Shown: positions 3,033 through 32,543 of the stretch, piece after piece | Position numbering within the stretch: the stretch's first letter is position 1 | Layout: each line of letters starts with the position of its first letter | Origin: a virus | Strand: one strand, 5' to 3' | Length of the DNA stretch: 39,845 nt | Virus record (IMG/VR): IMGVR_UViG_3300006147_000054 | Program-made: the position numbers and the translations under genes | The notes under the pieces: model-generated | Databases searched by the model: none | What the model was told of the DNA's origin: nothing | What the model saw: only the letters and a program-made list of their open reading frames with translations

Positions 3033-4142
3033 CTAAATTTCATCTAAAATTCCAACAATTTGATTATCGGATTTTTGCTTTAATTCATCTAACATGTAGG
3101 CATAGGTTGATGCCGTGATACTCATATTTGAATGACCTAATCTTTTACTAATTGAATATAAGTCGACTCCTTTAAAGAGTAACATAGCAACGTGAGTATG
3201 TCTAAGGCTGTGAAAATGAAAACCATTTTTTTCAATATGTAACTTTTTAAGCTGCTTCCTTAGAACTTTATTGACGGCACTAGAAGTCGGAATGGTGCCA
3301 TCTGGTCCAATAAATAGCCGCATTGTACCATTCTTTTTTAATTGGAGAAGAATATCGAGCAATTTTTGATCTACAGCAATAACTCTAGTGGAGGAACGGT
3401 TTTTGGTTTTTTTATTAATTTCATCAGAATCATAGTTTACAATTTTCTTTTTATCATAATCCCATGATTTAGTGATATGAATTTGTTTATTTTTGAAATC
3501 AATATCATTCCATGTGAGAACTCTAATTTCCCCTGGTCGCATACCAGTATAAATTATTGTCAAAAGCATATATCGACTGATGTAAGTAGCATTAATTTTA
3601 TCTTTTAGTGATTTTACTAGTTGTTGAACTTGTTCAAAATTTAAGTAATCTATTTTTCTTGTTTTTTCTTCATTCCAAATTAAATTAATACGGTCAGTGA
3701 AGTTTTTTCTAATTATACCTTCACTGATAGCGTCTTTGGCACAGGAACGAATAGAACCGTGTGTTTTTTTGACTGTATCCTTAGCATGAGTTGCACCATA
3801 ATCATTCATAAATTTTTGATATTTTAGGCGATTAATTTTAGAGATTTTAATATTTGGAAAATTTTTTGTTAAAAGATCATAAATAATTCTATACCGCCGT
3901 TTAGTATTACCAGATTTTCCAGGAGTTTTATAGGTCTCATACCAAGTTTTAAAATATTCAGCAAATATGGGGTCTTGATTAGAAATGTTTTCTTCATCTT
4001 TTGCTACTTCCATTTCATTAGCCCACTTTTGAGCATCCCTTTTAGTAGCAAAACCACTTTTAGTTTTATATTTTCTCTCATCATTAGAGTACCAAGATAT
4101 TTGAACTGACCAAGTTTTACCTCTTTTTTTGATATAAGCCAT
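3033..4142 (-). CDS. int: Tyrosine recombinase (phage integrase)
   Basis: 369 aa. Contains the catalytic signature TGMRPGE...HSLRHTH...LGHSNMSITASTYAYM (R, H-x-x-R, H, Y). Confidence 0.92.
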   Translation of the reverse strand: MAYIKKRGKTWSVQISWYSNDERKYKTKSGFATKRDAQKWANEMEVAKDEENISNQDPIFAEYFKTWYETYKTPGKSGNTKRRYRIIYDLLTKNFPNIKISKINRLKYQKFMNDYGATHAKDTVKKTHGSIRSCAKDAISEGIIRKNFTDRINLIWNEEKTRKIDYLNFEQVQQLVKSLKDKINATYISRYMLLTIIYTGMRPGEIRVLTWNDIDFKNKQIHITKSWDYDKKKIVNYDSDEINKKTKNRSSTRVIAVDQKLLDILLQLKKNGTMRLFIGPDGTIPTSSAVNKVLRKQLKKLHIEKNGFHFHSLRHTHVAMLLFKGVDLYSISKRLGHSNMSITASTYAYMLDELKQKSDNQIVGILDEI

Positions 4143-13669: not shown

Positions 13670-14131
13670 ATGAGAGTTAATTTTACGATTGAAGGACCGC
13701 CAGTAGGTAAGGCTAGACCTAGAGTTACTAGGACAGGTACTTTTAATCCGCCTAAAAGTGATCAGTACGAAAAATTAGTAAGATACACAGCAATTAACAG
13801 TTTTAGTGGATATTTTGACCTAGATGAGCCTTTAGATGTCAAAATAGTGGCATATTTTAGAATTCCCAAGAGTTGGAGCAAGAAGCGCAAAGCTCGTTGC
13901 TTAGCTAATCAGGAATTACCTATTAAGACTCCTGACGCTGATAATATCGCAAAAATAATACTGGATGGTATGAATCCGGATAAAAAGCGAAATAAACAGT
14001 TGAGAAAAATGGTTGAACTTATGCGTGGAGTATATAGAGATGATAGGCAAGTCACTAAATTGGCAGTTGTAAAGAGATATGCAGACCGTCCTAGGGTTGA
14101 AGTGAGAATTAAGAGAGATATGGGGGATTAG
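13670..14131 (+). CDS. rusA: RusA-family Holliday junction resolvase
   Basis: Motifs GPPVGKARPR, DADNIAKIILDGMN and YRDDRQV. Confidence 0.85.
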   Translation: MRVNFTIEGPPVGKARPRVTRTGTFNPPKSDQYEKLVRYTAINSFSGYFDLDEPLDVKIVAYFRIPKSWSKKRKARCLANQELPIKTPDADNIAKIILDGMNPDKKRNKQLRKMVELMRGVYRDDRQVTKLAVVKRYADRPRVEVRIKRDMGD

Positions 14132-15412: not shown

Positions 15413-15433
15413 TAGGTGAGAGGGAGTGTAAGT

Positions 15434-15937
15434 GTGTATCAAATCAATTTAGGGTTGCAGCCCAATCCGAGAGCTACAGCTAGGAAGGTGGACAAATTTC
15501 TGACTACTGAGTTTCAGAGATATCTTAACTTAGCTGGTTTGCACCGCAATCAACTTACAAGCCCTCAATTATCTTTTGCACCAGGATCAACAAACAAAAA
15601 TGGGGTCGAAGATAATTTCATAGATGAAGCATTAGATGATATTAATATTGCTGATCCTGCTAGGAAGGTGTGTGCAGCCATCTATAAGACAATGGATAAT
15701 TGTACTGACACCGCCTTTAAGCCCTACAGACGCATTTTAATTGGTACATATATAGATCAATTAAGGATTGTTGACGTAGCAGCAAGTGTCAACTTATCTA
15801 CTCGATCAATCGACAACAAAAAAGTCAACGCACAATGCGAATTTGCTGACCGTTGGCTGTACTGGAAGAAGTATTTTGATGTTGAAGGCTTACCTGATTT
15901 AAGAGTTTTTACTGAAAGAATTAAGACTGTTTGGTAA
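15434..15937 (+). CDS. ArpU-family late-gene transcriptional regulator (candidate)
   Basis: It is the last early gene before the packaging module. The pattern LTSPQLSFAPGS...NGVED and the size recall ArpU/Alt-type regulators. The start is either GTG 15434 (GAGGGAG upstream) or GTG 15416. Confidence 0.55.
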   Translation: MYQINLGLQPNPRATARKVDKFLTTEFQRYLNLAGLHRNQLTSPQLSFAPGSTNKNGVEDNFIDEALDDINIADPARKVCAAIYKTMDNCTDTAFKPYRRILIGTYIDQLRIVDVAASVNLSTRSIDNKKVNAQCEFADRWLYWKKYFDVEGLPDLRVFTERIKTVW

Positions 15938-15956
15938 GTTTCGGAAAAATTGGTCG

Positions 15957-16019
15957 TGCGTAAAGTATGCGTAAACCTTGCGTTCTGCTTGCGTGCAAAT
16001 CGTGTTAAATTGTTATTGT
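15957..16019 (+). promoter_or_regulatory. Candidate activator-dependent late promoter: four phased TGCGT boxes plus an extended -10
   Basis: TGCGT occurs at 15957, 15968, 15979 and 15990, exactly 11 bp apart. TGtTATTGT at 16011-16019 has no recognisable -35. Confidence 0.5.
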
Positions 16020-16145
16020 CGAAAGATTAGGTGGTAGGATCTTTCGACGACACCTCGATGATGCTATGAGTGCGGTTTTTCGAACTTAAAAATACTCCTT
16101 TCTAAAATTAATAGAAGATCTTGATTTGTGTAAGTACAAATTGAC

Positions 16146-16194
16146 TGACCGTCCTTGGTAGGCGTTAGCAGTCGTTCGATTCGGCTGGCGGTTA
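16146..16194 (+). ncRNA. tRNA-like module A (acceptor-like helix plus T-arm, no D or anticodon arms)
   Basis: TGACCGT pairs with GCGGTTA (two G-U pairs). The T-arm is CAGTCG-TTCGATT-CGGCTG at 16169-16187. Confidence 0.4.
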
Positions 16195-16277
16195 TAGCCC
16201 GAGACAGCGGGCTAATCGATGAGAGACGATAAAAAAAGACCTCTAATAAAATATTTCTCGTAGTTTCTTAATTATTC

Positions 16278-16308
16278 AAGTTAAGCAGGTTCAATTCCTG
16301 CTTGGCTT
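16278..16308 (+). ncRNA. tRNA minihelix-like hairpin (module D)
   Basis: Continuous 12-bp helix AAGTTAAGCAGG / CCTGCTTGGCTT, capped by the T-loop TTCAATT and closed by a G-C pair. Confidence 0.4.
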
Positions 16309-16463
16309 ATAGCACCTAAGCAGGTAGTCATTATCAGACTATTATGTGTAATAGTATGTAGCTTAGGTGCAACCTTCTATCGCCATGACCCCTCAACGGT
16401 TTCGAGGGAGAGCGTAGACTAAGAGCTGGTTATCTGTTCGCAGTGGACCGCAGCAGATACCGT

Positions 16464-16548
16464 GGGTAGAACGGAACACAATTTGGAATTAGAAAGAAGG
16501 CAATCTTCTTTCATAAATATCTAGCGAGGTTCGACTCCTTGCCTGCCC
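16464..16548 (+). ncRNA. tRNA-like module B (85 nt, non-canonical)
   Basis: GGGTAG pairs with CTGCCC in an acceptor-like closure. An 8-bp hairpin GAAAGAAG-GCAAT-CTTCTTTC sits where the anticodon arm would be. The T-arm is CGAGG-TTCGACT-CCTTG. No D-stem is visible. Confidence 0.35.
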
Positions 16549-16703
16549 GTTGCCTGTTGGAAAGCAGGCGTTAAGCAAATATACCTTGTCATGCAATATA
16601 TTTGCGTTTTATCCGTAATAGTAATGTACATTCACGAAAAATATATTACTTGTCGTTTAATTTACAGCATCTGGTTTAGCTCTGTGCCTTAACAGAGCAT
16701 TGT

Positions 16704-16810
16704 AGGATATAGCTAGCCATTGGTGAGCTAGGGTAGTGGCAATTCTACCGAGATATAGCTAAGTATGCCAGCAACGATTATCTCTTATTGGTTCGATTCC
16801 GGTGTATCCT
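16704..16810 (+). ncRNA. tRNA-like module C (107 nt cloverleaf-like, non-canonical)
   Basis: Acceptor AGGATAT/GTATCCT. D-arm CTAG-11 nt (with GG)-CTAG. Stem GGTAG/CTACC with the 8-nt loop TGGCAATT. A 6-bp extra arm GAGATA/TATCTC with a 23-nt loop. T-arm ATTGG-TTCGATT-CCGGT. Confidence 0.4.
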
Positions 16811-16915
16811 ATTGATTAGCTTTGTTCAATTATTATTAATCTCCGTGTGTTTCACCAAAGCTAATCTATTGGCAAAGTCCTAATTTGGACTAACATGTAT
16901 ATTAATCTCAAAATG

Positions 16916-16946
16916 TCAACTCTGTAACTTCGGAGTTGATTTTTTT
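16916..16946 (+). terminator. Strong intrinsic terminator ending the structured region
   Basis: TCAACTC / GAGTTGA stem (extendable), followed by seven T residues. Confidence 0.75.
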
Positions 16947-16971
16947 ATAATATTTTTTGAGGTGAATATAT

Positions 16972-17553
16972 ATGAATGAAGAGAAAAAAACTGTATGGGA
17001 AGATAGATTTGAAAAATTAGAAAAAAAGTTTACTGCCTTTGGTGAGAAGAGAAAAAATATAATTTATACCATTATAATAGCTGCATTTTTATTTTTTGGT
17101 AATTTTTTAATTTTTACATCACTAGAAAACTCTCAACAGGCTGGAAAGCAAAATTTTTGGATAGAAGATAGTATGATCTTTATATCCATTGCATTTTTCG
17201 TAAGTGCTATTGCACTTATTATTGTTCTTCTAGGTAATCCTCCACTAAAAGATTTATGCCTATCGATCTGTATTTTACTTAATTTAATGACCTTTGTAAC
17301 TTCTATACATGTTCCGAATCGATATTTATGGTGTACTCTAACTTGGGGTGTGACTGATTTAATTATTTCAAGATGGTTATTAATCAATATTTATAAAGCT
17401 AAAACACTTTTTACTATTACTGAAATAAAAGAAGTGCATAAATTTTCTGATAAAAATGTTGAAATAACCAAAAAACATTATCCGTTTTTATTTCCAATAA
17501 TAATAGCTTTAATAACTGCTCTAGGAACAATTATTGCAGCTTTACTAAAATAA
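16972..17553 (+). CDS. Polytopic membrane protein of unknown function, an AT-rich moron
   Basis: 193 aa with about five hydrophobic segments after a charged N-terminus. TATAAT at 16946-16951 and a GAGGTGA RBS lie upstream, and it has its own terminator downstream. It is visibly more AT-rich than its neighbours. Confidence 0.7.
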   Translation: MNEEKKTVWEDRFEKLEKKFTAFGEKRKNIIYTIIIAAFLFFGNFLIFTSLENSQQAGKQNFWIEDSMIFISIAFFVSAIALIIVLLGNPPLKDLCLSICILLNLMTFVTSIHVPNRYLWCTLTWGVTDLIISRWLLINIYKAKTLFTITEIKEVHKFSDKNVEITKKHYPFLFPIIIALITALGTIIAALLK

Positions 17554-17623: not shown

Positions 17624-18163
17624 TTGGAACGTAAGTTAACAGCTAAACAAAGGTTATTTTGTGATGAGTATATTAAGTCTGGAAATGCTAAAGACGCAGC
17701 TCTCAAAGCTGGATATTCTGCAAAAACAGCATATTCTATTGGTAATGAGAACCTGAATAAACCTGAACTTAAATCTTATATTGACGCTAAAATGGCTGAA
17801 ATTGAGTCTCATAAAATTGCTGATGCTAAAGAAGTGTTGGAATTCTACACGAAAGTACTCCGAGATGAAGTTGTTGAAGAAGTTCCAATGTCCACTGCCG
17901 ACAATGTGGTTGTAATTAAAAAGAAACCTTCTTTCAAAGACAAAATTACAGCTTCAAAAGAAATTATGAAGCGATATCCATTAGTTGATCCTATTGAGAA
18001 GCAAAAACTTAAAAAACTTATTGCAGATACTCGTATATCAGAAGCAAAGGCTACGGTTGCTGAACGTTTAGGTAGTGAAAACACTGAACAACTTGATGAT
18101 TTAATTAATAAACTTGTAGGAGAAGAAAAGAAAGATGGGACTAGATCAGATCCTAACTCATAA
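17624..18163 (+). CDS. terS: Terminase small subunit
   Basis: The N-terminus LTAKQRLFCDEYIKSGNAKDAALKAGYSAKTAYSIGNENLNKPE is the typical Terminase_2 signature. TTG start after GGTGGTGAG. Confidence 0.85.
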   Translation: MERKLTAKQRLFCDEYIKSGNAKDAALKAGYSAKTAYSIGNENLNKPELKSYIDAKMAEIESHKIADAKEVLEFYTKVLRDEVVEEVPMSTADNVVVIKKKPSFKDKITASKEIMKRYPLVDPIEKQKLKKLIADTRISEAKATVAERLGSENTEQLDDLINKLVGEEKKDGTRSDPNS

Positions 18164-29126: not shown

Positions 29127-32100
29127 ATGAGTACAATTAGTACCACCGTGAAAATTAATGATGCTTTTAGTAGTCCATTAGATAGATTATCTAGTGGTTT
29201 ACAAAAAGCTCAAAGTGGTATGAGTAAACTAAAACAAGCTATTTCTGGTGGATCTAGTGGCGGTGGTAGCATGTTCAAGTCCATGGTTGGCGGTACTGTT
29301 GTTGGTGGTGCAATTAACAAGGGAATGGAGCTAGCTGGGACTGGTATTAGGTCAATGTATGGTGAACTTGATGAAGCAAGTAAAGCTTGGCAAACATTTG
29401 AAGGAAACATGCATCAGTTAGGAAAAAGTCCTGCTGAAATTGCCACTGCTAAGAAGTCAATGCAACAATTTGCCCAACAGACAATCTATGGTGCATCAGA
29501 TATGGCAAGTACTTACTCACAATTGGCTGCTGTTGGTACAAAAAACGTGGATCAATTAGTTAGAGGTTTTGGTGGTTTAGCTGCTGCTTCTTCTAATCCA
29601 CAACAAGCTATGAAGACCTTGTCAGAGCAGGCAACTCAAATGGCTGCCAAGCCAATGGTGCAATGGCAAGACTTTAAACTTATGCTAGAACAAACTCCAG
29701 CAGGTATTTCTGCCGTTGCCAAGACAATGGGTGTAAGTACCCAGCAATTAATTAAGAACGTCCAAGATGGAAAGGTTAAAACCGAGGACTTCTTGAACGC
29801 AATAGCTAAAACAGGAACGAACGCCAACTTTACCAAAATGGCTACCCAATTCAAAACGGTTGGGCAAGCTATTGATGGTTTAAAGGAAACAATGGCTAAC
29901 AAATTGCAAGGTGCATTTGATCGCTTAGGTAAAGTTGGCATCAAATTTGTTTCTGATTTAACAGATCAACTTTCCAATGTTAATTTTGATGGATTTGTTG
30001 ATGGATTGTTTAAAGCTTTTGAAAGTTTAGAGCCTATTTTTGATAATTTAAAAAAAGGTTTTGAAGACTTTAAAAAAGGTTTCTCTGATTCTGGCGCTTT
30101 GAACTCACTAAAGGATACCTTTGAAAGTATTACAAAAGCTGTTGATAAATTAGTAAAAACGATGAGTAAGTCCAATGGTGGTGATAGCCTATTTAAACAG
30201 TTAGGTAAACTAGCTGGTGGTGCATTAGGTGGTGCTGCAAAAGCTATTTCTGGATTTGCAGAAGCATTAGGAAAATTAGACCCAGGTACAATTCAAATGT
30301 TAGCCCAAGCTTTTATCATCTTAAAAGGTGGATTGAAGGGACTATTCTTTGAAGCTGTAGTTTGGGGTTTAAAAGAACTTAATAAACTTGATCCCGGCAC
30401 AATTAAAAATATTGCAGAAGCTATAACGGCTTTAGCAGTGGCATTCACAATGTTGAAAGCCATGGGGAAAATTGGAGGCTGGATGAAAGAGGTATCAGGC
30501 TTCTTTAAAGGCCTAAAAGGGGCTAAAAAGATTAAAGCTCCTGAAATTGAGTCACCAAAAATGACTAAACCAGGTAAGATCTTAAGTAATGCTGGAGCAT
30601 ATATGAAACTGGGCGCAGCATTTGCCCTAGTTGGTGCTGGTGCATTAATGGTCGGCGCTGGATTTAAGTTGCTAGCTGATGCAGCTACTCAGATATCTAG
30701 TGCAGGTGGCGGTGCTATAGCAACATTCTTTGGAATGATTGCCGCTATTGCTGCATTAGTAGTCTTAGTTAGGTTCTTAGGCCCTGCATTGATTGGTGGA
30801 GCAATTGGTTTTGCTATTTTTGCGGCTGCGTTGCTCTTAATTGCTGTTGCTGTTTTAGTTGCTAGTGCTGGTATTGCTCTTTTAGCTACTCAACTCCCTA
30901 CTATTTCAGAATATGGGACTAGTGCAGCAGTTGGTTTACTTGCTTTAGCTGGTGCGATTGCTGTATTTGGCTTAGCCGCAATAGTTGGAGCTGTTGGAGT
31001 ACTTCTTTTAGGAGTTGCCTTAGTAGTTCTTGCAGTTGGTTTAGTTGCAGCAGGTGTTGGAGCATTAATTTTTGCTGTAGGTTTAGCCTTAGTTGGAATT
31101 ACTGCTCTAATTGCAGCTGTTGGTGTCTTACTTTTAGGAGTAGCAATTGCCTTGATTGCAGTAATGGTAGTAATTGCAGCAGTTGGAATGCTTCTATTCG
31201 GTGTGGCACTTGTCTTAGTTACAGCAATGGGGATTGTTGCTGCAATTGGCTTACTTTTGATGGGCGTTGCTTTAATGCTAATCATGGTTAGTGCAATGGT
31301 TGCTGCAGTCGGTTTAATTCTATTATCAGTAGCATTACTCTTAATTGGTCCAATGTCCTTAATCGCAGCTGTTGGATTATTGCTCTTAGGTGTTGCTTTA
31401 GTCCTAGTCATGGCGATGGGCTTAGTCGCCGCAGTTGGTATCTTGCTTTTAGGAGTTGGATTAGTTCTTGTTTCAGCTATGGCAATGGTCGCCGCAGTAG
31501 GTTTATTGTTGATGTCAGTTGCTTTAATGATGATTATGGTAACGGCGATGGTATCAGCAGTCGGGTTGATGCTTTTAGCTGTAGCTCTGGTATTAGTTGG
31601 TCCGATGGCAATGATTGCAGCAGTAGGCTTAATGCTACTAGCTGTAGCGGCAATCATGCTAGGAGCTGGATTGATGGTAGTAGCTGCTGCTGCTATGGCT
31701 GTTTCTGCTGCCTTAATTGCTGTAGGTGCTTCCGTAATGATTATGGTTTCATTCTTCATTATGGCTGGTTCTATGATGGTTTCAGCTATTACTAGCGCAA
31801 TGCACAATGTTGTTAGTGCTGTAAGAAGCGGGATTTCTAACGCTGTTAATGCTGCTAGAAGTTTCGGAAATGCTTTGGTTTCTGTTGGTAGGCAATTAAT
31901 TCAAGGTTTAGTTAACGGTATTAAATCTATGATTGGTGCAGCTGTTAGTGCCGTCCGAGGTGTGGCAAGTAAGGTAGTAAGTGCTGCTAAAAGCGTGCTT
32001 CACATTGGTTCTCCATCTAAATTATTTAGACAGTATGGTCGCTGGGTCGATCAAGGTTTAATTATTGGGTTGAATAGAGATGCTGGTGCAGCTGCTGATG

Positions 32101-32543
32101 CTTCAGCAAGTATGGCGCAAGGTGTTGTAGATGCAGCTTCTGGAATGTCTCCAACCTTAGACCCTATTGGATTAAGCGGTATAAATCCAGGAGATTTACT
32201 TGCAGCTGGATTTGATAGGGCACTGGACGCAATCAGCAATGTTGCTGGTGCAATTACTGGACTTGATGGATCAAGAGCTAATATTGGCATTTTCGGTCAA
32301 GGTGCAGTTTCTTCTAGTTCAGTTGGTAGCGATACAGTAACATCTGGCTCAATTGCTCCAAGTTCAGTATTGACTAATAACAACAGTAATAGCCAAACAG
32401 ACAATAGTACTCAAGTTCAAATTGATAAAGGCGCTATTGTCATCAATGCTTCTGGTGATCCAGATGCAGACGTAGACAAGATTTTAGACAAAATCGATCA
32501 AAAGATTATTGATAGACGTAATAAAGCTCTAGGAGGTGGTTAA
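29127..32543 (+). CDS. Tape measure protein with a greatly expanded hydrophobic repeat core
   Basis: 1138 aa, GAGGAGG RBS, located after the chaperone gene. Helical N-terminal part, about 400 aa of A/V/L/G/I/M-rich repeats, then a C-terminal region. Confidence 0.85.
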   Translation: MSTISTTVKINDAFSSPLDRLSSGLQKAQSGMSKLKQAISGGSSGGGSMFKSMVGGTVVGGAINKGMELAGTGIRSMYGELDEASKAWQTFEGNMHQLGKSPAEIATAKKSMQQFAQQTIYGASDMASTYSQLAAVGTKNVDQLVRGFGGLAAASSNPQQAMKTLSEQATQMAAKPMVQWQDFKLMLEQTPAGISAVAKTMGVSTQQLIKNVQDGKVKTEDFLNAIAKTGTNANFTKMATQFKTVGQAIDGLKETMANKLQGAFDRLGKVGIKFVSDLTDQLSNVNFDGFVDGLFKAFESLEPIFDNLKKGFEDFKKGFSDSGALNSLKDTFESITKAVDKLVKTMSKSNGGDSLFKQLGKLAGGALGGAAKAISGFAEALGKLDPGTIQMLAQAFIILKGGLKGLFFEAVVWGLKELNKLDPGTIKNIAEAITALAVAFTMLKAMGKIGGWMKEVSGFFKGLKGAKKIKAPEIESPKMTKPGKILSNAGAYMKLGAAFALVGAGALMVGAGFKLLADAATQISSAGGGAIATFFGMIAAIAALVVLVRFLGPALIGGAIGFAIFAAALLLIAVAVLVASAGIALLATQLPTISEYGTSAAVGLLALAGAIAVFGLAAIVGAVGVLLLGVALVVLAVGLVAAGVGALIFAVGLALVGITALIAAVGVLLLGVAIALIAVMVVIAAVGMLLFGVALVLVTAMGIVAAIGLLLMGVALMLIMVSAMVAAVGLILLSVALLLIGPMSLIAAVGLLLLGVALVLVMAMGLVAAVGILLLGVGLVLVSAMAMVAAVGLLLMSVALMMIMVTAMVSAVGLMLLAVALVLVGPMAMIAAVGLMLLAVAAIMLGAGLMVVAAAAMAVSAALIAVGASVMIMVSFFIMAGSMMVSAITSAMHNVVSAVRSGISNAVNAARSFGNALVSVGRQLIQGLVNGIKSMIGAAVSAVRGVASKVVSAAKSVLHIGSPSKLFRQYGRWVDQGLIIGLNRDAGAAADASASMAQGVVDAASGMSPTLDPIGLSGINPGDLLAAGFDRALDAISNVAGAITGLDGSRANIGIFGQGAVSSSSVGSDTVTSGSIAPSSVLTNNNSNSQTDNSTQVQIDKGAIVINASGDPDADVDKILDKIDQKIIDRRNKALGGG
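30921..31739 (+). repeat. Thirteen in-frame tandem 63-bp (21-aa) repeats within the tape measure gene
   Basis: Units of the type IAAVGxLLLGVALVLVxAMxx begin every 63 nt. I checked the phase at 31110, 31173, 31236, 31299 and 31614. The flanking units are more degenerate. Confidence 0.8.

What the first reader, a model, noticed from the sequence alone, without database searches (positions are those of the whole stretch)
16146..16810. Four T-arm modules that look like tRNA parts but do not assemble into canonical tRNAs
Four hairpins carry the tRNA T-loop consensus closed by a G-C pair: CAGTCG-TTCGATT-CGGCTG (16169), GCAGG-TTCAATT-CCTGC (16285), CGAGG-TTCGACT-CCTTG (16525) and ATTGG-TTCGATT-CCGGT (16787). 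Each is followed by 7 nt that can pair with an upstream strand like an acceptor stem. The rest is aberrant. Module A lacks D and anticodon arms. Module B has an 8-bp hairpin with a 5-nt loop and no D-stem. Module C has an 8-nt anticodon-type loop, no position 26, and an extra arm with a 23-nt loop. Modules B and C share GGCAAT in the anticodon-position loop. These could be decoys or handles for tRNA-binding enzymes (CCA-adding enzyme, RNase P/Z, anticodon nucleases or other tRNA-targeting defences), processing signals, or decayed tRNA genes.
Basis: seen in the sequence. Interest (0 to 1): 0.72.

Follow-up and report, generated by a model that had tools for sequence, protein, structure and literature searches.

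The report
Conserved tRNA-mimic modules in phage RNA
A Lactobacillus prophage carries four tRNA look-alikes that cannot decode; three of them, plus the hairpins between them, form a conserved structured RNA that is absent from RNA-family databases and sits where related phages keep their tRNA genes.

Summary
The 39.8-kb window contains exactly four hairpins with the tRNA T-arm signature. All are on the + strand at 16170-16803, against 0.07 expected by chance. In 977 kb of unrelated DNA the same motif is almost always inside a real tRNA (28 of 29 hits).

None of the four is a canonical tRNA by ARAGORN or Rfam. They are not debris either. Modules A, B and C recur at the same positions in about 29 distinct Lactobacillus johnsonii/gasseri (pro)phage sequences. 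Compensatory changes keep their acceptor-like and T stems paired (97% of cells paired, against 34-49% in slid controls).

The modules belong to a roughly 0.9-kb ORF-free unit. It runs from a promoter-like site preceded by activator boxes (15957-16011) to a predicted terminator (16915-16946). Relatives place canonical tRNAs (Gln, Glu, Phe, Tyr) at its 3' end; this window has none. Module D occupies the tRNA-Gln slot.

Only the "top half" of tRNA is kept: a 12-14-layer acceptor/T stack, with a D-loop-like UGG in A, C and D. My best reading is non-decoding tRNA mimics recognised by host tRNA-maturation enzymes. The main rival is a GOLLD/ROOL-like structured RNA with embedded tRNA-like domains. 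The function has not been tested.

The parts
15957..15994 (+). Four TGCGT boxes spaced exactly 11 bp apart; putative binding sites for the activator encoded just upstream (15416-15937).
   Evidence: Positions. The box sequence changes together with the activator protein type across clades. The activator matches phrog_248 'transcriptional activator' at E 5e-32.
16003..16011 (+). Extended -10 element TGTTAAATT with no -35; inferred start of the noncoding transcription unit (transcription start about 16013-16018).
   Evidence: TGnTAAATT or TGGTAATTT is kept in most clades (a regex found none in L034, L130, L141, L142) despite different upstream boxes. This is an inference. The generic promoter scan does not list it because there is no -35.
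16018..16048 (+). 5' hairpin P1: GTCGAAAGAT, loop, ATCTTTCGAC.
   Evidence: RNAalifold on 23 sequences gives 11 pairs. L034 keeps the pairing with changed bases. The Lj928 clade has GTCGGA...GTCCGAC in this position.
16121..16144 (+). Hairpin immediately 5' of module A (TTGATTTGT / ACAAATTGA), with a 1-nt linker to A.
   Evidence: MFE fold. The jlb1 clade has a different sequence that forms a 10-bp hairpin at the same place (alignment, read by eye).
16146..16194 (+). Module A: 7-bp acceptor-like stem (16146-52 / 16188-94), 3-bp mini D hairpin CCU-UGGU-AGG, 6-nt linker, 6-bp T stem with loop TTCGATT (16169-87). No anticodon arm.
   Evidence: RNAalifold on 23 sequences. The mini-D pair shows CG in 11 sequences and UA in 12. 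T-stem and acceptor changes are one-sided (wobble to Watson-Crick). Absent in the Lj928 clade and L143.
16196..16213 (+). Hairpin AGCCCG-AGACAG-CGGGCT, 1 nt after module A.
   Evidence: Covaries: one stem pair is C-G in 4 sequences and U-A in 18. The loop is variable.
16278..16308 (+). Module B: continuous 12-bp hairpin capped by T loop TTCAATT; an acceptor/T-arm 'minihelix' with no D or anticodon part.
   Evidence: MFE -16.8 kcal/mol, z -6.1. Eight of 11 pairs show double-sided changes in 23 sequences, and 94.5% of cells are paired. Rfam tRNA score 17.9 bits, below threshold.
16313..16369 (+). Long hairpin CACCTAAGC...GCTTAGGTG with an internal branched part, 4 nt after module B.
   Evidence: RNAalifold gives 7 pairs, 2 with compensatory changes. 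It is shortened to a simple CCTAGG hairpin in the Lj928 clade.
16381..16414 (+). Hairpin with internal loop CAUGA/AGA (K-turn-like) and apical loop AACGGUUUC.
   Evidence: Appears in the MFE of 16270-16572. The outer stem covaries in the Lj928 clade (AUAUGC/GCGUAU versus AUGUGC/GCGCAU, read by eye). The K-turn reading was not tested.
16428..16461 (+). Helix H (GGTTATCTG / CAGATACC), which abuts module C with no linker.
   Evidence: RNAalifold: 4 of 8 pairs show compensatory changes, for example UA in 11 and GC in 10 sequences, and CG in 11 and UA in 11.
16462..16550 (+). Module C: 8-bp acceptor-like stem (16462-69 / 16543-50), single-stranded linker with CACAATTTGGAA (16477-88), 8-bp hairpin with a 5-nt loop (16492-16512), T arm CGAGG-TTCGACT-CCTTG (16525-41). 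No D stem and no 7-nt anticodon loop.
   Evidence: The MFE reproduces this fold, z -2.7. Acceptor stem: 98.9% of cells paired, with GC-to-CG and UG-to-UA or CG changes. T stem: 100% paired, 3 of 5 pairs compensatory. GGTTC-A--CC is invariant in 23 sequences.
16552..16569 (+). Hairpin GCCTG-TTGGAAAG-CAGGC directly after module C.
   Evidence: CCUG/CAGG alternates with UCCG/CGGA: two pairs carry 9 and 10 compensatory sequences. It is the most conserved segment, 0.83 mean pairwise identity.
16668..16700 (+). 'Pre-tRNA' hairpin element CATCTGGTTTAGCTCTGTGCCTTAACAGAGCAT, 2-6 nt upstream of the first tRNA or tRNA-like gene.
   Evidence: Present before slot 1 in most clades and repeated before tRNA-Phe in Lj965. 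Mean pairwise identity 0.76.
16703..16811 (+). Module D: cloverleaf-like, with a 7-bp acceptor, 5-bp D stem, 5-bp stem carrying the 8-nt loop UGGCAAUU, 6-bp extra arm with a 23-nt loop, and T arm (16787-16803). It occupies the slot of tRNA-Gln(TTG) in relatives.
   Evidence: Fold. Rfam tRNA-Sec score 21.6 bits against a gathering score of 47. Five sequence variants exist. One pair is compensatory (UA to CG in the D stem), two are wobble to Watson-Crick, and 9 of 14 variable sites are unpaired. Its 5' and 3' ends align with the Lj771/KC5a tRNA-Gln.
16814..16866 (+). Hairpin GATTAGCTTTG ... CAAAGCTAATC after module D.
   Evidence: Coordinates. The 5' arm also follows tRNA-Gln in KC5a, Lj965 and jlb1.
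16915..16946 (+). Intrinsic-terminator-like hairpin followed by a T run; the predicted end of the noncoding unit. The next ORF starts at 16972.
   Evidence: 10 pairs plus TTTTTTT. A similar hairpin and T run occurs in L129 and L096.

Best explanation
The four T arms are the preserved 'top halves' of tRNA-derived RNAs that no longer decode. Each keeps an acceptor-like stem stacked on a T arm, 12-14 layers in all. A, C and D also keep a D-loop-like UGG.

They lie in a roughly 0.9-kb ORF-free unit with a predicted activator-dependent promoter near 16003-16011 and a predicted terminator at 16915-16946. This unit is the 5' part of the tRNA island of Lactobacillus johnsonii/gasseri temperate phages.

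Modules A-C and the hairpins between them form a conserved structured RNA family that Rfam 15 does not hold. Module D is a derivative of the tRNA that normally occupies the first slot (tRNA-Gln).

**Shown:** the modules exist, they are not canonical tRNAs, selection acts on an RNA structure read from the + strand, and they are linked to phage tRNA islands.

**Inferred mechanism:** the modules fold like the acceptor/T-arm minihelix and elbow of tRNA. Host tRNA-maturation enzymes that read only this half (RNase P, RNase Z, the CCA-adding enzyme, T-loop modification enzymes) would then recognise them. The long primary transcript would be handled like a multi-tRNA precursor: cut at module borders into stable pieces and possibly CCA-tailed. 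The decoding half has been free to change or disappear.
For: - **The T-arm signature is real and very tRNA-specific.** There are 4 hits in 0.65 kb, against 0.07 expected per window. Only 1 orphan occurs in 977 kb of unrelated DNA, where 28 of 29 hits lie in real tRNAs.
- **Selection on structure.** For modules B and C across 23 distinct sequences, 97.1% of cells are paired, against 34-49% when partners are slid. Twelve of 24 pairs have double-sided changes, against 1-3 when slid. The covariation score is 0.481, against at most 0.145 when slid, and 0 of 500 shuffles reach it.
- **Wider fold.** RNAalifold over 16268-16575 gives 49 pairs, 22 with compensatory changes.
- **The + strand is the folded strand.** G.U pairs are fixed on it, for example G.U in all 23 sequences at the end of the C acceptor stem. 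The + strand folds at -103 kcal/mol and the - strand at -92 kcal/mol.
- **T-loop residues.** The residues that define the tRNA T loop (G52 G53 T54 T55 C56 A58 C61 C62) are invariant in C and nearly so in A and B.
- **Segment conservation.** Mean pairwise identity is 0.74 for A, 0.68 for B, 0.78 for C and 0.83 for the post-C hairpin. It is 0.57 for the 3' end of the adjacent gene, 0.42 and 0.52 for the spacers, and 0.23-0.31 downstream.
- **An island of conservation.** In Lj928 only window positions about 16420-16597 match at the DNA level.
- **Same unit as real tRNAs.** Nearly all relatives carry one to four tRNA calls (mostly canonical Gln, Glu, Phe, Tyr; L063 has only a defective one) 100-700 nt downstream.
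- **The same erosion recurs.** Slot 1 holds a canonical tRNA-Gln, or a Gln-like gene with a broken anticodon loop, or module D. Further orphan T arms lie downstream in relatives. In each case the top half is kept and decoding is lost.
- **The boundaries behave like tRNA ends.** Heavily relaxed ARAGORN runs place 3' ends at 16195, 16309, 16548 and 16812.
Against: - There are no expression or end-mapping data, so processing is pure inference.
- Modules A and C abut flanking hairpins with 0-1-nt linkers. The real tRNAs of the island have 4-6-nt leaders. A paired leader is a poor RNase P context and suggests A and C are built into a larger fold.
- The stacks are 12-14 layers rather than the canonical 12 bp.
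- Module A alone is not thermodynamically distinctive (z -0.43, and its MFE is a different fold). Its covariation is thin: one compensatory pair.
- Processing signals alone do not explain why three modules and several conserved hairpins are kept upstream of the tRNAs, or why they persist here and in L128, which have no canonical tRNA.
- The homolog set was gathered with exact patterns inside 16421-16530. This inflates apparent invariance there. L168 lacks the CACAATTTGG motif.
Confidence: 0.45

Rival explanations
1. **One large structured RNA.** This would be a small counterpart of GOLLD or ROOL. The tRNA-like modules are built-in domains, either architectural T loops and elbows or covalently attached tRNA-like 'cargo'. 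The RNA acts as a whole, possibly as an oligomer or with a protein partner, and is not cut into pieces.
For: - The niche matches GOLLD and ROOL: phages and prophages, within or next to tRNA arrays, Lactobacillales. tRNAs are sometimes embedded in GOLLD (PMC12286853; PMC5737381; PMC12990946).
- The stretch from B through the post-C hairpin (16278-16569) is contiguous and conserved in every clade. It folds with z -4.1.
- A and C join their neighbouring helices with 0-1-nt linkers.
- The unit persists without any canonical tRNA in this window and in L128.
Against: - There is no match to the GOLLD or ROOL models even at E up to 10.
- I found no pseudoknots or long-range pairings; the fold is a string of local hairpins.
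- The AT-rich spacers between blocks vary greatly in length and sequence (identity 0.42-0.52).
- Module A is dispensable in one clade.
- Structural T-loop motifs in other RNAs do not keep the full tRNA consensus GGTTCRAnYCC (from general knowledge).
Confidence: 0.3
2. **Decoy or sponge.** The modules mimic the acceptor end and elbow of tRNA. They would titrate a host factor that attacks or modifies tRNA 3' ends or elbows during infection, such as toxin nucleotidyltransferases or pyrophosphokinases that act on the CCA end. This would protect host and phage tRNAs.
For: - Only the top half is conserved, in several copies per transcript.
- The unit lies in an accessory-gene hotspot next to phage tRNAs. 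The downstream genes vary between relatives: a methyltransferase, a ParB-like nuclease, and a gene annotated as SieB superinfection exclusion.
- It is inferred to be driven by a phage activator-dependent promoter.
Against: - No target system has been identified.
- No CCA is encoded after any module, so decoy activity at the 3' end would first need processing and CCA addition.
- Nothing here distinguishes this from the processing model.
- Anticodon-directed nucleases are excluded as targets, because no anticodon loop is kept.
Confidence: 0.1
3. **Leader element of the late operon.** The structured RNA would act in cis on transcription, for example through processive antitermination past the terminator at 16915-16946, or on mRNA stability. 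The tRNA likeness would be incidental ancestry.
For: - It is the first thing transcribed from the inferred activator-dependent promoter.
- It is followed by a terminator-like site just before the first late ORF.
- It is conserved across clades that have unrelated activators.
Against: - This does not explain nucleotide-level conservation of the T loops or covariation of the acceptor-like stems.
- Known antiterminator RNAs are much shorter and not tRNA-like (from general knowledge).
- Real tRNAs share the unit in relatives.
Confidence: 0.07
4. **Decaying tRNA pseudogenes.** Neutral remnants of a former tRNA array with no present function.
For: - The islands show a continuum from canonical tRNAs to defective ones: calls of tRNA-???, tRNA-Phe(AAA) and tRNA-Tyr(ATA), plus extra orphan T arms.
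- Module D has little variation to test.
Against: - A-C are kept at fixed positions in all clades with compensatory changes and invariant T-loop residues.
- They are better conserved than the adjacent protein gene and far better than the spacers.
Confidence: 0.05

Closest known systems
GOLLD RNA (Rfam RF01998)
   Same: A large noncoding RNA of phages and prophages, including Lactobacillales, located in or next to tRNA arrays. tRNAs are sometimes embedded in its variable part. Function unknown (PMC12286853, PMC12990946).
   Different: No covariance-model match even at E up to 10. The unit here is smaller (about 300 nt core, about 550 nt from P1 to the post-C hairpin). It is a string of local hairpins with no detected pseudoknots. 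The embedded elements are non-decoding tRNA mimics rather than real tRNAs.
ROOL RNA (Rfam RF03087)
   Same: Found in phages and prophages, near tRNA islands, in Lactobacillales among others. Function unknown (PMC5737381, PMC12286853).
   Different: No model match. [quoted passage not shown] No homology is shown.
YrlA / bacterial Y RNAs with a tRNA-like domain
   Same: A noncoding RNA that keeps T arm, D-loop features and an acceptor-like stem but has no decoding function. With a 7-bp acceptor stem it is cut by RNase P and CCA-tailed. It is also found in phages (PMC4201824).
   Different: YrlA is encoded next to Ro60/Rsr and has a Ro-binding stem. No Y RNA-like family appeared among the Rfam matches, and no TROVE-domain match was found among the eight ORFs scanned. 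Here several modules are arrayed in one transcript beside real tRNAs.
tRNA-like 3'-end processing elements of long noncoding RNAs (MALAT1 mascRNA type; also GUT15 in plants)
   Same: A tRNA-like fold with an aberrant anticodon region, used as an RNase P / RNase Z handle to mature a longer noncoding transcript. MALAT1/mascRNA is from general knowledge. GUT15 is known only from the abstract listed (PMC6152437).
   Different: These are eukaryotic, with a single element per transcript. Processing is demonstrated there and untested here.
tRNA-like domain of tmRNA
   Same: Module A resembles it: an acceptor stem, a D-loop analogue without a proper D stem, a T arm and no anticodon arm.
   Different: ARAGORN finds no tmRNA. 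There is no tag reading frame or pseudoknots, and no G3.U70. Module A is closed by a 6-nt linker instead of the long tmRNA body.
Stable RNAs of unknown function in the phage T4 tRNA cluster (species 1 and 2; recalled from memory, not checked here)
   Same: Non-tRNA stable RNAs encoded within a phage tRNA gene cluster and matured with the tRNAs.
   Different: No sequence relation was examined, and the phage group is different. This is a lead only.

Membership tests
Canonical tRNA (Rfam RF00005 / ARAGORN) | Covariance-model or ARAGORN score above threshold | tested here: not met
   ARAGORN finds 0 genes in the window at default and -ps settings. Rfam finds nothing at gathering score. The best sub-threshold hits are tRNA 17.9 bits (gathering score 29) over 16209-16309 and tRNA-Sec 21.6 bits (gathering score 47) over 16703-16811.
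Canonical tRNA (Rfam RF00005 / ARAGORN) | 5-bp anticodon stem with a 7-nt loop (U33, anticodon, purine 37) | tested here: not met
   A and B have no such arm. C has an 8-bp stem with a 4-5-nt loop. D has an 8-nt loop, UGGCAAUU, without U33.
Canonical tRNA (Rfam RF00005 / ARAGORN) | T arm with GTTCRANNC closed by G53-C61 | tested here: met
   All four modules have it. It is conserved in relatives.
Canonical tRNA (Rfam RF00005 / ARAGORN) | 7-bp acceptor stem stacked on the T stem (12 bp) | tested here: inconclusive
   Acceptor-like stems exist and covary, but the stacks are 7+6 bp (A, D), 12 bp continuous (B; 13 layers in the Lj928 clade) and 8+5 bp with one bulged base (C).
Canonical tRNA (Rfam RF00005 / ARAGORN) | D arm (3-4-bp stem, loop with G18 G19) | tested here: inconclusive
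   A has a 3-bp stem with loop UGGU. B has none. C has no stem, only a UUUGGAA strand. D has a 5-bp stem and a loop with UUGG.
tmRNA | tRNA-like domain plus tag reading frame and pseudoknots, detected by ARAGORN | tested here: not met
   ARAGORN finds no tmRNA, even with a lowered threshold.
GOLLD (RF01998) / ROOL (RF03087) | Match to the family covariance model | tested here: not met
   No hit at gathering score, or at E up to 10 with permissive filters, in the window region or in Lj928.
GOLLD (RF01998) / ROOL (RF03087) | Genomic setting: phage or prophage, adjacent to tRNA arrays | tested here: met
   Setting as described in PMC12286853 and PMC5737381.
YrlA / Y RNA | Encoded next to Ro60/Rsr; match to Rfam Y RNA models | tested here: not met
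   No Y RNA-like family was among the Rfam matches. The neighbouring ORFs are an activator, an unknown 193-aa protein and terminase subunits, with no TROVE-domain match among the 8 ORFs scanned.
T-box leader | Match to the Rfam T-box model (specifier loop, antiterminator T-box sequence) | tested here: not met
   No hit at E up to 10.
tRNA-like processing handles (RNase P / RNase Z / CCA-adding substrates) | Cleavage at the 5' and 3' borders of the module and CCA addition | not testable with these tools
   Only the structural prerequisites (minihelix, T loop) are shown. No CCA is encoded after any module.

The most novel reading that the evidence does not exclude
This is a previously undescribed class of phage noncoding RNA assembled from several non-decoding tRNA 'top-half' mimics. 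It would be a third, compact counterpart to GOLLD and ROOL in phage tRNA islands. It would act as a multivalent mimic that engages host tRNA-binding machinery or tRNA-directed defence, or as a scaffold particle, rather than as a mere processing relic.
Probability: 0.3. Interest if true: 0.8.

Novelty: new variant of a known kind. Interest (0 to 1): 0.6.

Why it matters
Phage tRNA islands repeatedly host large structured RNAs (GOLLD, ROOL) whose function has stayed unknown since they were described.

This locus is a much simpler member of that setting. It has a core of about 300 nt whose conserved blocks are recognisable tRNA mimics. It also sits in inducible, genetically workable Lactobacillus gasseri and johnsonii prophages (phi adh / jlb1, KC5a, Lj771).

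If the modules are recognised by RNase P, RNase Z, the CCA-adding enzyme or a tRNA-directed toxin, that gives a concrete handle on why phages link structured RNAs to their tRNA genes.

There is also a practical point. These regions are currently unannotated, or mis-annotated as 'hypothetical protein' (KC5a orf28) or 'tRNA-Ser' (Lj965).

Tried and rejected
- **Rfam.** I searched at gathering score over the whole window and three relatives, and at E up to 10 over 15800-17100 and over Lj928. Only sub-threshold tRNA-like hits and obvious noise came back. No GOLLD, ROOL, tmRNA, T-box, ribozyme or Y RNA-like family was among the matches.
- **ARAGORN.** Default, -ps, -ps80/70, intron and mitochondrial modes gave no credible tRNA. 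Only heavily relaxed runs pick up module borders.
- **Protein coding.** No ORF longer than 36 aa lies in 15940-16970.
- **The GGCAAT motif.** I considered it as a shared functional loop, or as a pseudoknot with the AUUGCC after module C. I rejected this because the loop is not conserved in the family.
- **CACAATTTGG pairing with ACAAATTG at 16136.** Rejected, because the partner is absent in the jlb1 clade.
- **Search patterns.** The first pattern, CACAATTTGGAA...TCTTTCA, mostly hit an unrelated coding sequence in viral contigs; only about 20 of 118 loci were family members by nhmmer. The stricter three-block pattern found nothing in the species-representative genomes, and a second pattern found three Lactobacillus genomes.
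- **Protein-anchored search.** Using the activator protein reached only relatives with at least 87% identity.
- **Literature.** I found no description of this RNA. The Ventura 2003 paper was not available.
- **Not pursued to a test.** The K-turn reading of 16381-16414 and the anti-Shine-Dalgarno-like motif at 16095.
Full report
**What the window is**

The window is a temperate Lactobacillus siphophage. Its integrase is at 3033-4142 (-), RusA at 13670-14131, and the small and large terminase subunits at 17624 and 18135. Positions 15900-16713 are 96.9% identical to L. johnsonii prophage Lj771. They are 72-77% identical to Lj965, phi jlb1, KC5a and JNU_P11.

The finding lies in a 1,034-nt stretch with no ORF longer than 36 aa (15938-16971). 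On one side is a gene matching PHROG 248 'transcriptional activator' (15416-15937, E 5e-32). On the other is an unknown 193-aa ORF.

**Checking the observation**

I scanned for a 5-bp stem closed by G-C around the loop TTCRANY.
- The scan finds exactly these four sites in the 39.8-kb window. All are on the + strand within 16170-16803.
- Across 500 dinucleotide-preserving shuffles the mean is 0.07 hits per window and the maximum is 2.
- As a control on real DNA, I ran the same scan on 110 unrelated loci (977 kb). It gave 29 hits, 28 of them inside ARAGORN tRNAs and one orphan.

Four orphans in 0.65 kb is therefore exceptional.

None of the four is a canonical tRNA.
- ARAGORN finds nothing at default or slightly lowered thresholds.
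- Rfam finds nothing at gathering score.
- With permissive settings Rfam gives only tRNA 17.9 bits (threshold 29) and tRNA-Sec 21.6 bits (threshold 47).
- Only heavily relaxed, intron-permitting ARAGORN runs call anything. Their ends then coincide with the module borders: 16195, 16309, 16548 and 16812.

Its 'B' text describes the 16525 module and its 'C' text the 16787 module. The 16285 module is not described.

**Anatomy (coordinates; folds)**

- **Module A (16146-16194).** A 7-bp acceptor-like stem, a 3-bp mini D hairpin with loop UGGU, a 6-nt linker and a 6-bp T stem. It has no anticodon arm.
- **Module B (16278-16308).** One continuous 12-bp hairpin capped by a T loop. This is the acceptor/T-arm minihelix and nothing else (MFE z -6.1).
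- **Module C (16462-16550).** An 8-bp acceptor-like stem, a single-stranded linker carrying CACAATTTGGAA, an 8-bp hairpin with a 5-nt loop, and a T arm.
- **Module D (16703-16811).** A cloverleaf with an 8-nt 'anticodon' loop (UGGCAAUU) and an extra arm of 6 bp with a 23-nt loop.

A, C and D carry a D-loop-like UUGG, placed to meet the T loop as in the tRNA elbow. B does not. No module is followed by an encoded CCA.

Each module is flanked by hairpins. A and C abut them with 0-1-nt linkers. B and D have 2-4 nt or more.

**Surroundings**

Upstream are four TGCGT boxes at exactly 11-bp spacing (15957-15994) and an extended -10 element, TGTTAAATT (16003-16011), with no -35.

The -10 element is visible in most clades (window-type, Lj965, L080/L129/L143 and Lj928; a regex search found none in L034, L130, L141 or L142), while the box sequence changes with the activator protein:
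- TGCG(T/C) where the activator is at least 85% identical.
- T(A/T)(C/T)GTT in Lj965, where it is 61% identical.
- CG(T/G)AC where it is about 25% identical.

I read this as an activator-dependent promoter. That is an inference.

A terminator-like hairpin with a T run lies at 16915-16946, 25 nt before the next ORF. The unit is therefore about 0.9 kb: promoter, a 5' hairpin, then modules and hairpins, then a terminator.

**Relatives**

I collected homologs with exact-pattern scans of viral, genome and metagenome collections, and with the activator protein as an anchor. This gave about 29 representatives below 97% identity.

BLAST against 50,697 phage records finds nothing outside this group. 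All 17 complete loci reached through the activator protein carry the core.

In every representative the orphan T arms of B and C sit at the same relative positions. A is present except in the Lj928 clade and L143.

Downstream, nearly all relatives carry one to four tRNA calls, mostly canonical: Gln-TTG, Glu-TTC, Phe-GAA, Tyr-GTA (L063 has only a defective one). This window and L128 carry none.

So intact tRNAs do not replace A-C in relatives. They replace only D. The first slot after a conserved 'pre-tRNA' hairpin (16668-16700) holds one of the following:
- a canonical tRNA-Gln;
- a Gln-like gene with a broken anticodon loop (Lj965, L063);
- module D (six representatives, five distinct sequences);
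- another tRNA.

Relatives also carry further orphan T arms downstream. The islands therefore show a continuum from tRNA to tRNA-like element.

**Evidence for selection on an RNA structure**

- Across 23 distinct sequences of 16268-16575, RNAalifold predicts 49 pairs, 22 with compensatory changes.
- I then counted only the stems of modules B and C. In these, 97.1% of cells are paired, against 34-49% when the partners are slid by 1-3 columns.
- Twelve of these 24 pairs have changes on both sides, against 1-3 when slid.
- The covariation score is 0.481, against at most 0.145 when slid. No shuffle out of 500 reaches the observed values for pairing or covariation.
- G.U pairs are fixed on the + strand and would be A.C mismatches on the other strand. 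The + strand folds more stably (-103 against -92 kcal/mol).
- The residues that define a tRNA T loop are invariant in C (GGTTC-A--CC) and nearly so in A and B.

By segment, mean pairwise identity is as follows:

| Segment | Identity |
|---|---|
| Module A | 0.74 |
| Module B | 0.68 |
| Core 16381-16461 | 0.70 |
| Module C | 0.78 |
| Post-C hairpin | 0.83 |
| Pre-tRNA hairpin | 0.76 |
| 3' end of the activator gene | 0.57 |
| Spacers | 0.42 and 0.52 |
| Downstream of the unit | 0.23-0.31 |

Two caveats apply.
- My search patterns lay within 16421-16530, so conservation there is inflated. One locus found through the protein (L168) lacks CACAATTTGG.
- Support for A is thinner, with one compensatory pair. 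Support for D is also thin, with one compensatory pair and 9 of 14 variable sites unpaired.

**Interpretation**

What is kept is the half of tRNA read by RNase P, RNase Z, the CCA-adding enzyme and the T-loop modification enzymes. That half is an acceptor/T coaxial stack of 12-14 layers with a canonical T loop and, in three modules, the GG that closes the elbow.

What is lost is the half read by the ribosome's decoding centre and by anticodon nucleases.

This pattern recurs independently at slot 1 and further downstream. The modules also share a transcription unit with real tRNAs.

My best-supported reading is that these are non-decoding tRNA mimics handled by the host tRNA-maturation machinery. 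The long transcript would then be matured like a multi-tRNA precursor. [quoted passage not shown]

I put this at about 0.45, for three reasons:
- Nothing about expression or RNA ends is known.
- A and C are embedded between helices with almost no single-stranded leader.
- Processing alone does not explain why the whole block persists where no tRNA remains.

The main rival, at about 0.3, is a single structured RNA with built-in tRNA-like domains. GOLLD and ROOL occupy the same niche, and GOLLD sometimes carries embedded tRNAs. Against this, neither Rfam model matches even at E 10, and I found no long-range pairings.

A decoy for factors that act on tRNA ends, a cis-acting leader of the late operon, and neutral pseudogenes are less likely. 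The last is contradicted for A-C.

**Novelty**

Rfam 15 has no family for this RNA, and the full-text searches found no description of it. Existing records leave it unannotated, or label parts of it 'hypothetical protein' (KC5a orf28) or 'tRNA-Ser' (Lj965).

It is a new variant of known kinds: tRNA-mimic RNAs and structured RNAs associated with phage tRNA islands. As far as sequence searches can see, it is confined to one phage group.

Noticed in passing
window 15957-16011: Four TGCGT boxes at exact 11-bp spacing, followed by the extended -10 element TGTTAAATT with no -35. The box sequence co-varies with the type of the upstream activator protein across phage clades. This looks like an activator-dependent (late) promoter.
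   Followed up: partly
window 16095-16102: CTCCTTTC, a CU-rich motif resembling the anti-Shine-Dalgarno sequence. It is kept in all clades (for example CACCTCCTTTG in L034 and TTCCTCC in L142) inside an otherwise poorly conserved stretch of the 5' segment. It could pair with ribosome-binding sites.
   Followed up: no
window 16381-16414: A hairpin whose internal loop CAUGA/AGA fits the K-turn pattern: a helix, a 3-nt bulge, then tandem G.A pairs. The outer stem covaries in the Lj928 clade.
   Followed up: no
window 16115-16122; L006 about 1816-1831: The self-complementary AAGATCTT in this window corresponds to a hairpin, AGATCTGAAAAGATCT, in the Lj928 clade. It may be a dimerisation or hairpin element.
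   Followed up: no
window 16668-16700; L001 (second copy about 26 nt upstream of tRNA-Phe, 2700-2773): A conserved hairpin element, CATCTGGTTTAGCTCTGTRCCTTAACAGAGCAT, sits 2-6 nt upstream of the first tRNA or tRNA-like gene. It is repeated before tRNA-Phe in Lj965. It may be a leader or processing element of the island.
   Followed up: partly
relatives: L003 2542-2611; also L002, L004, L080, L128 and L134 (same T arm type), and L006, L034, L130 (second type): Further orphan T arms lie downstream of the canonical tRNAs: GGTGG-TTCGAyT-CCACA (a degenerate tRNA-Phe-like gene) and CTTGG-TTCGATT-CCAGT. ARAGORN also makes odd calls here (tRNA-???, Phe-AAA, Tyr-ATA). The islands hold a continuum from tRNA to tRNA-like element.
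   Followed up: partly
L154 and L170 (aligned to window about 16432-16468): A deletion between two GGGTAG repeats removes helix H in these two loci, so H is not indispensable.
   Followed up: no
window 16915-16974: A terminator-like hairpin and T run lie only 25 nt before the ribosome-binding site and ATG of the first ORF after the RNA unit. The same layout occurs in L129 and L096. Late-gene expression would need read-through or a second promoter.
   Followed up: no
window 16972-17553 and the equivalent slot in relatives: The gene that follows the RNA/tRNA island differs between relatives: an unknown 193-aa protein here, a DNA methyltransferase in Lj771, a ParB-like nuclease in jlb1/KC5a, and a gene annotated as SieB superinfection exclusion in Lj928. 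This is an accessory-gene hotspot.
   Followed up: no
window 30890-32000: There is a strong negative AT skew (-0.29) and higher G+C (0.43) inside the 1138-aa ORF at 29127-32543. A 305-aa antisense ORF lies at 30890-31807.
   Followed up: no
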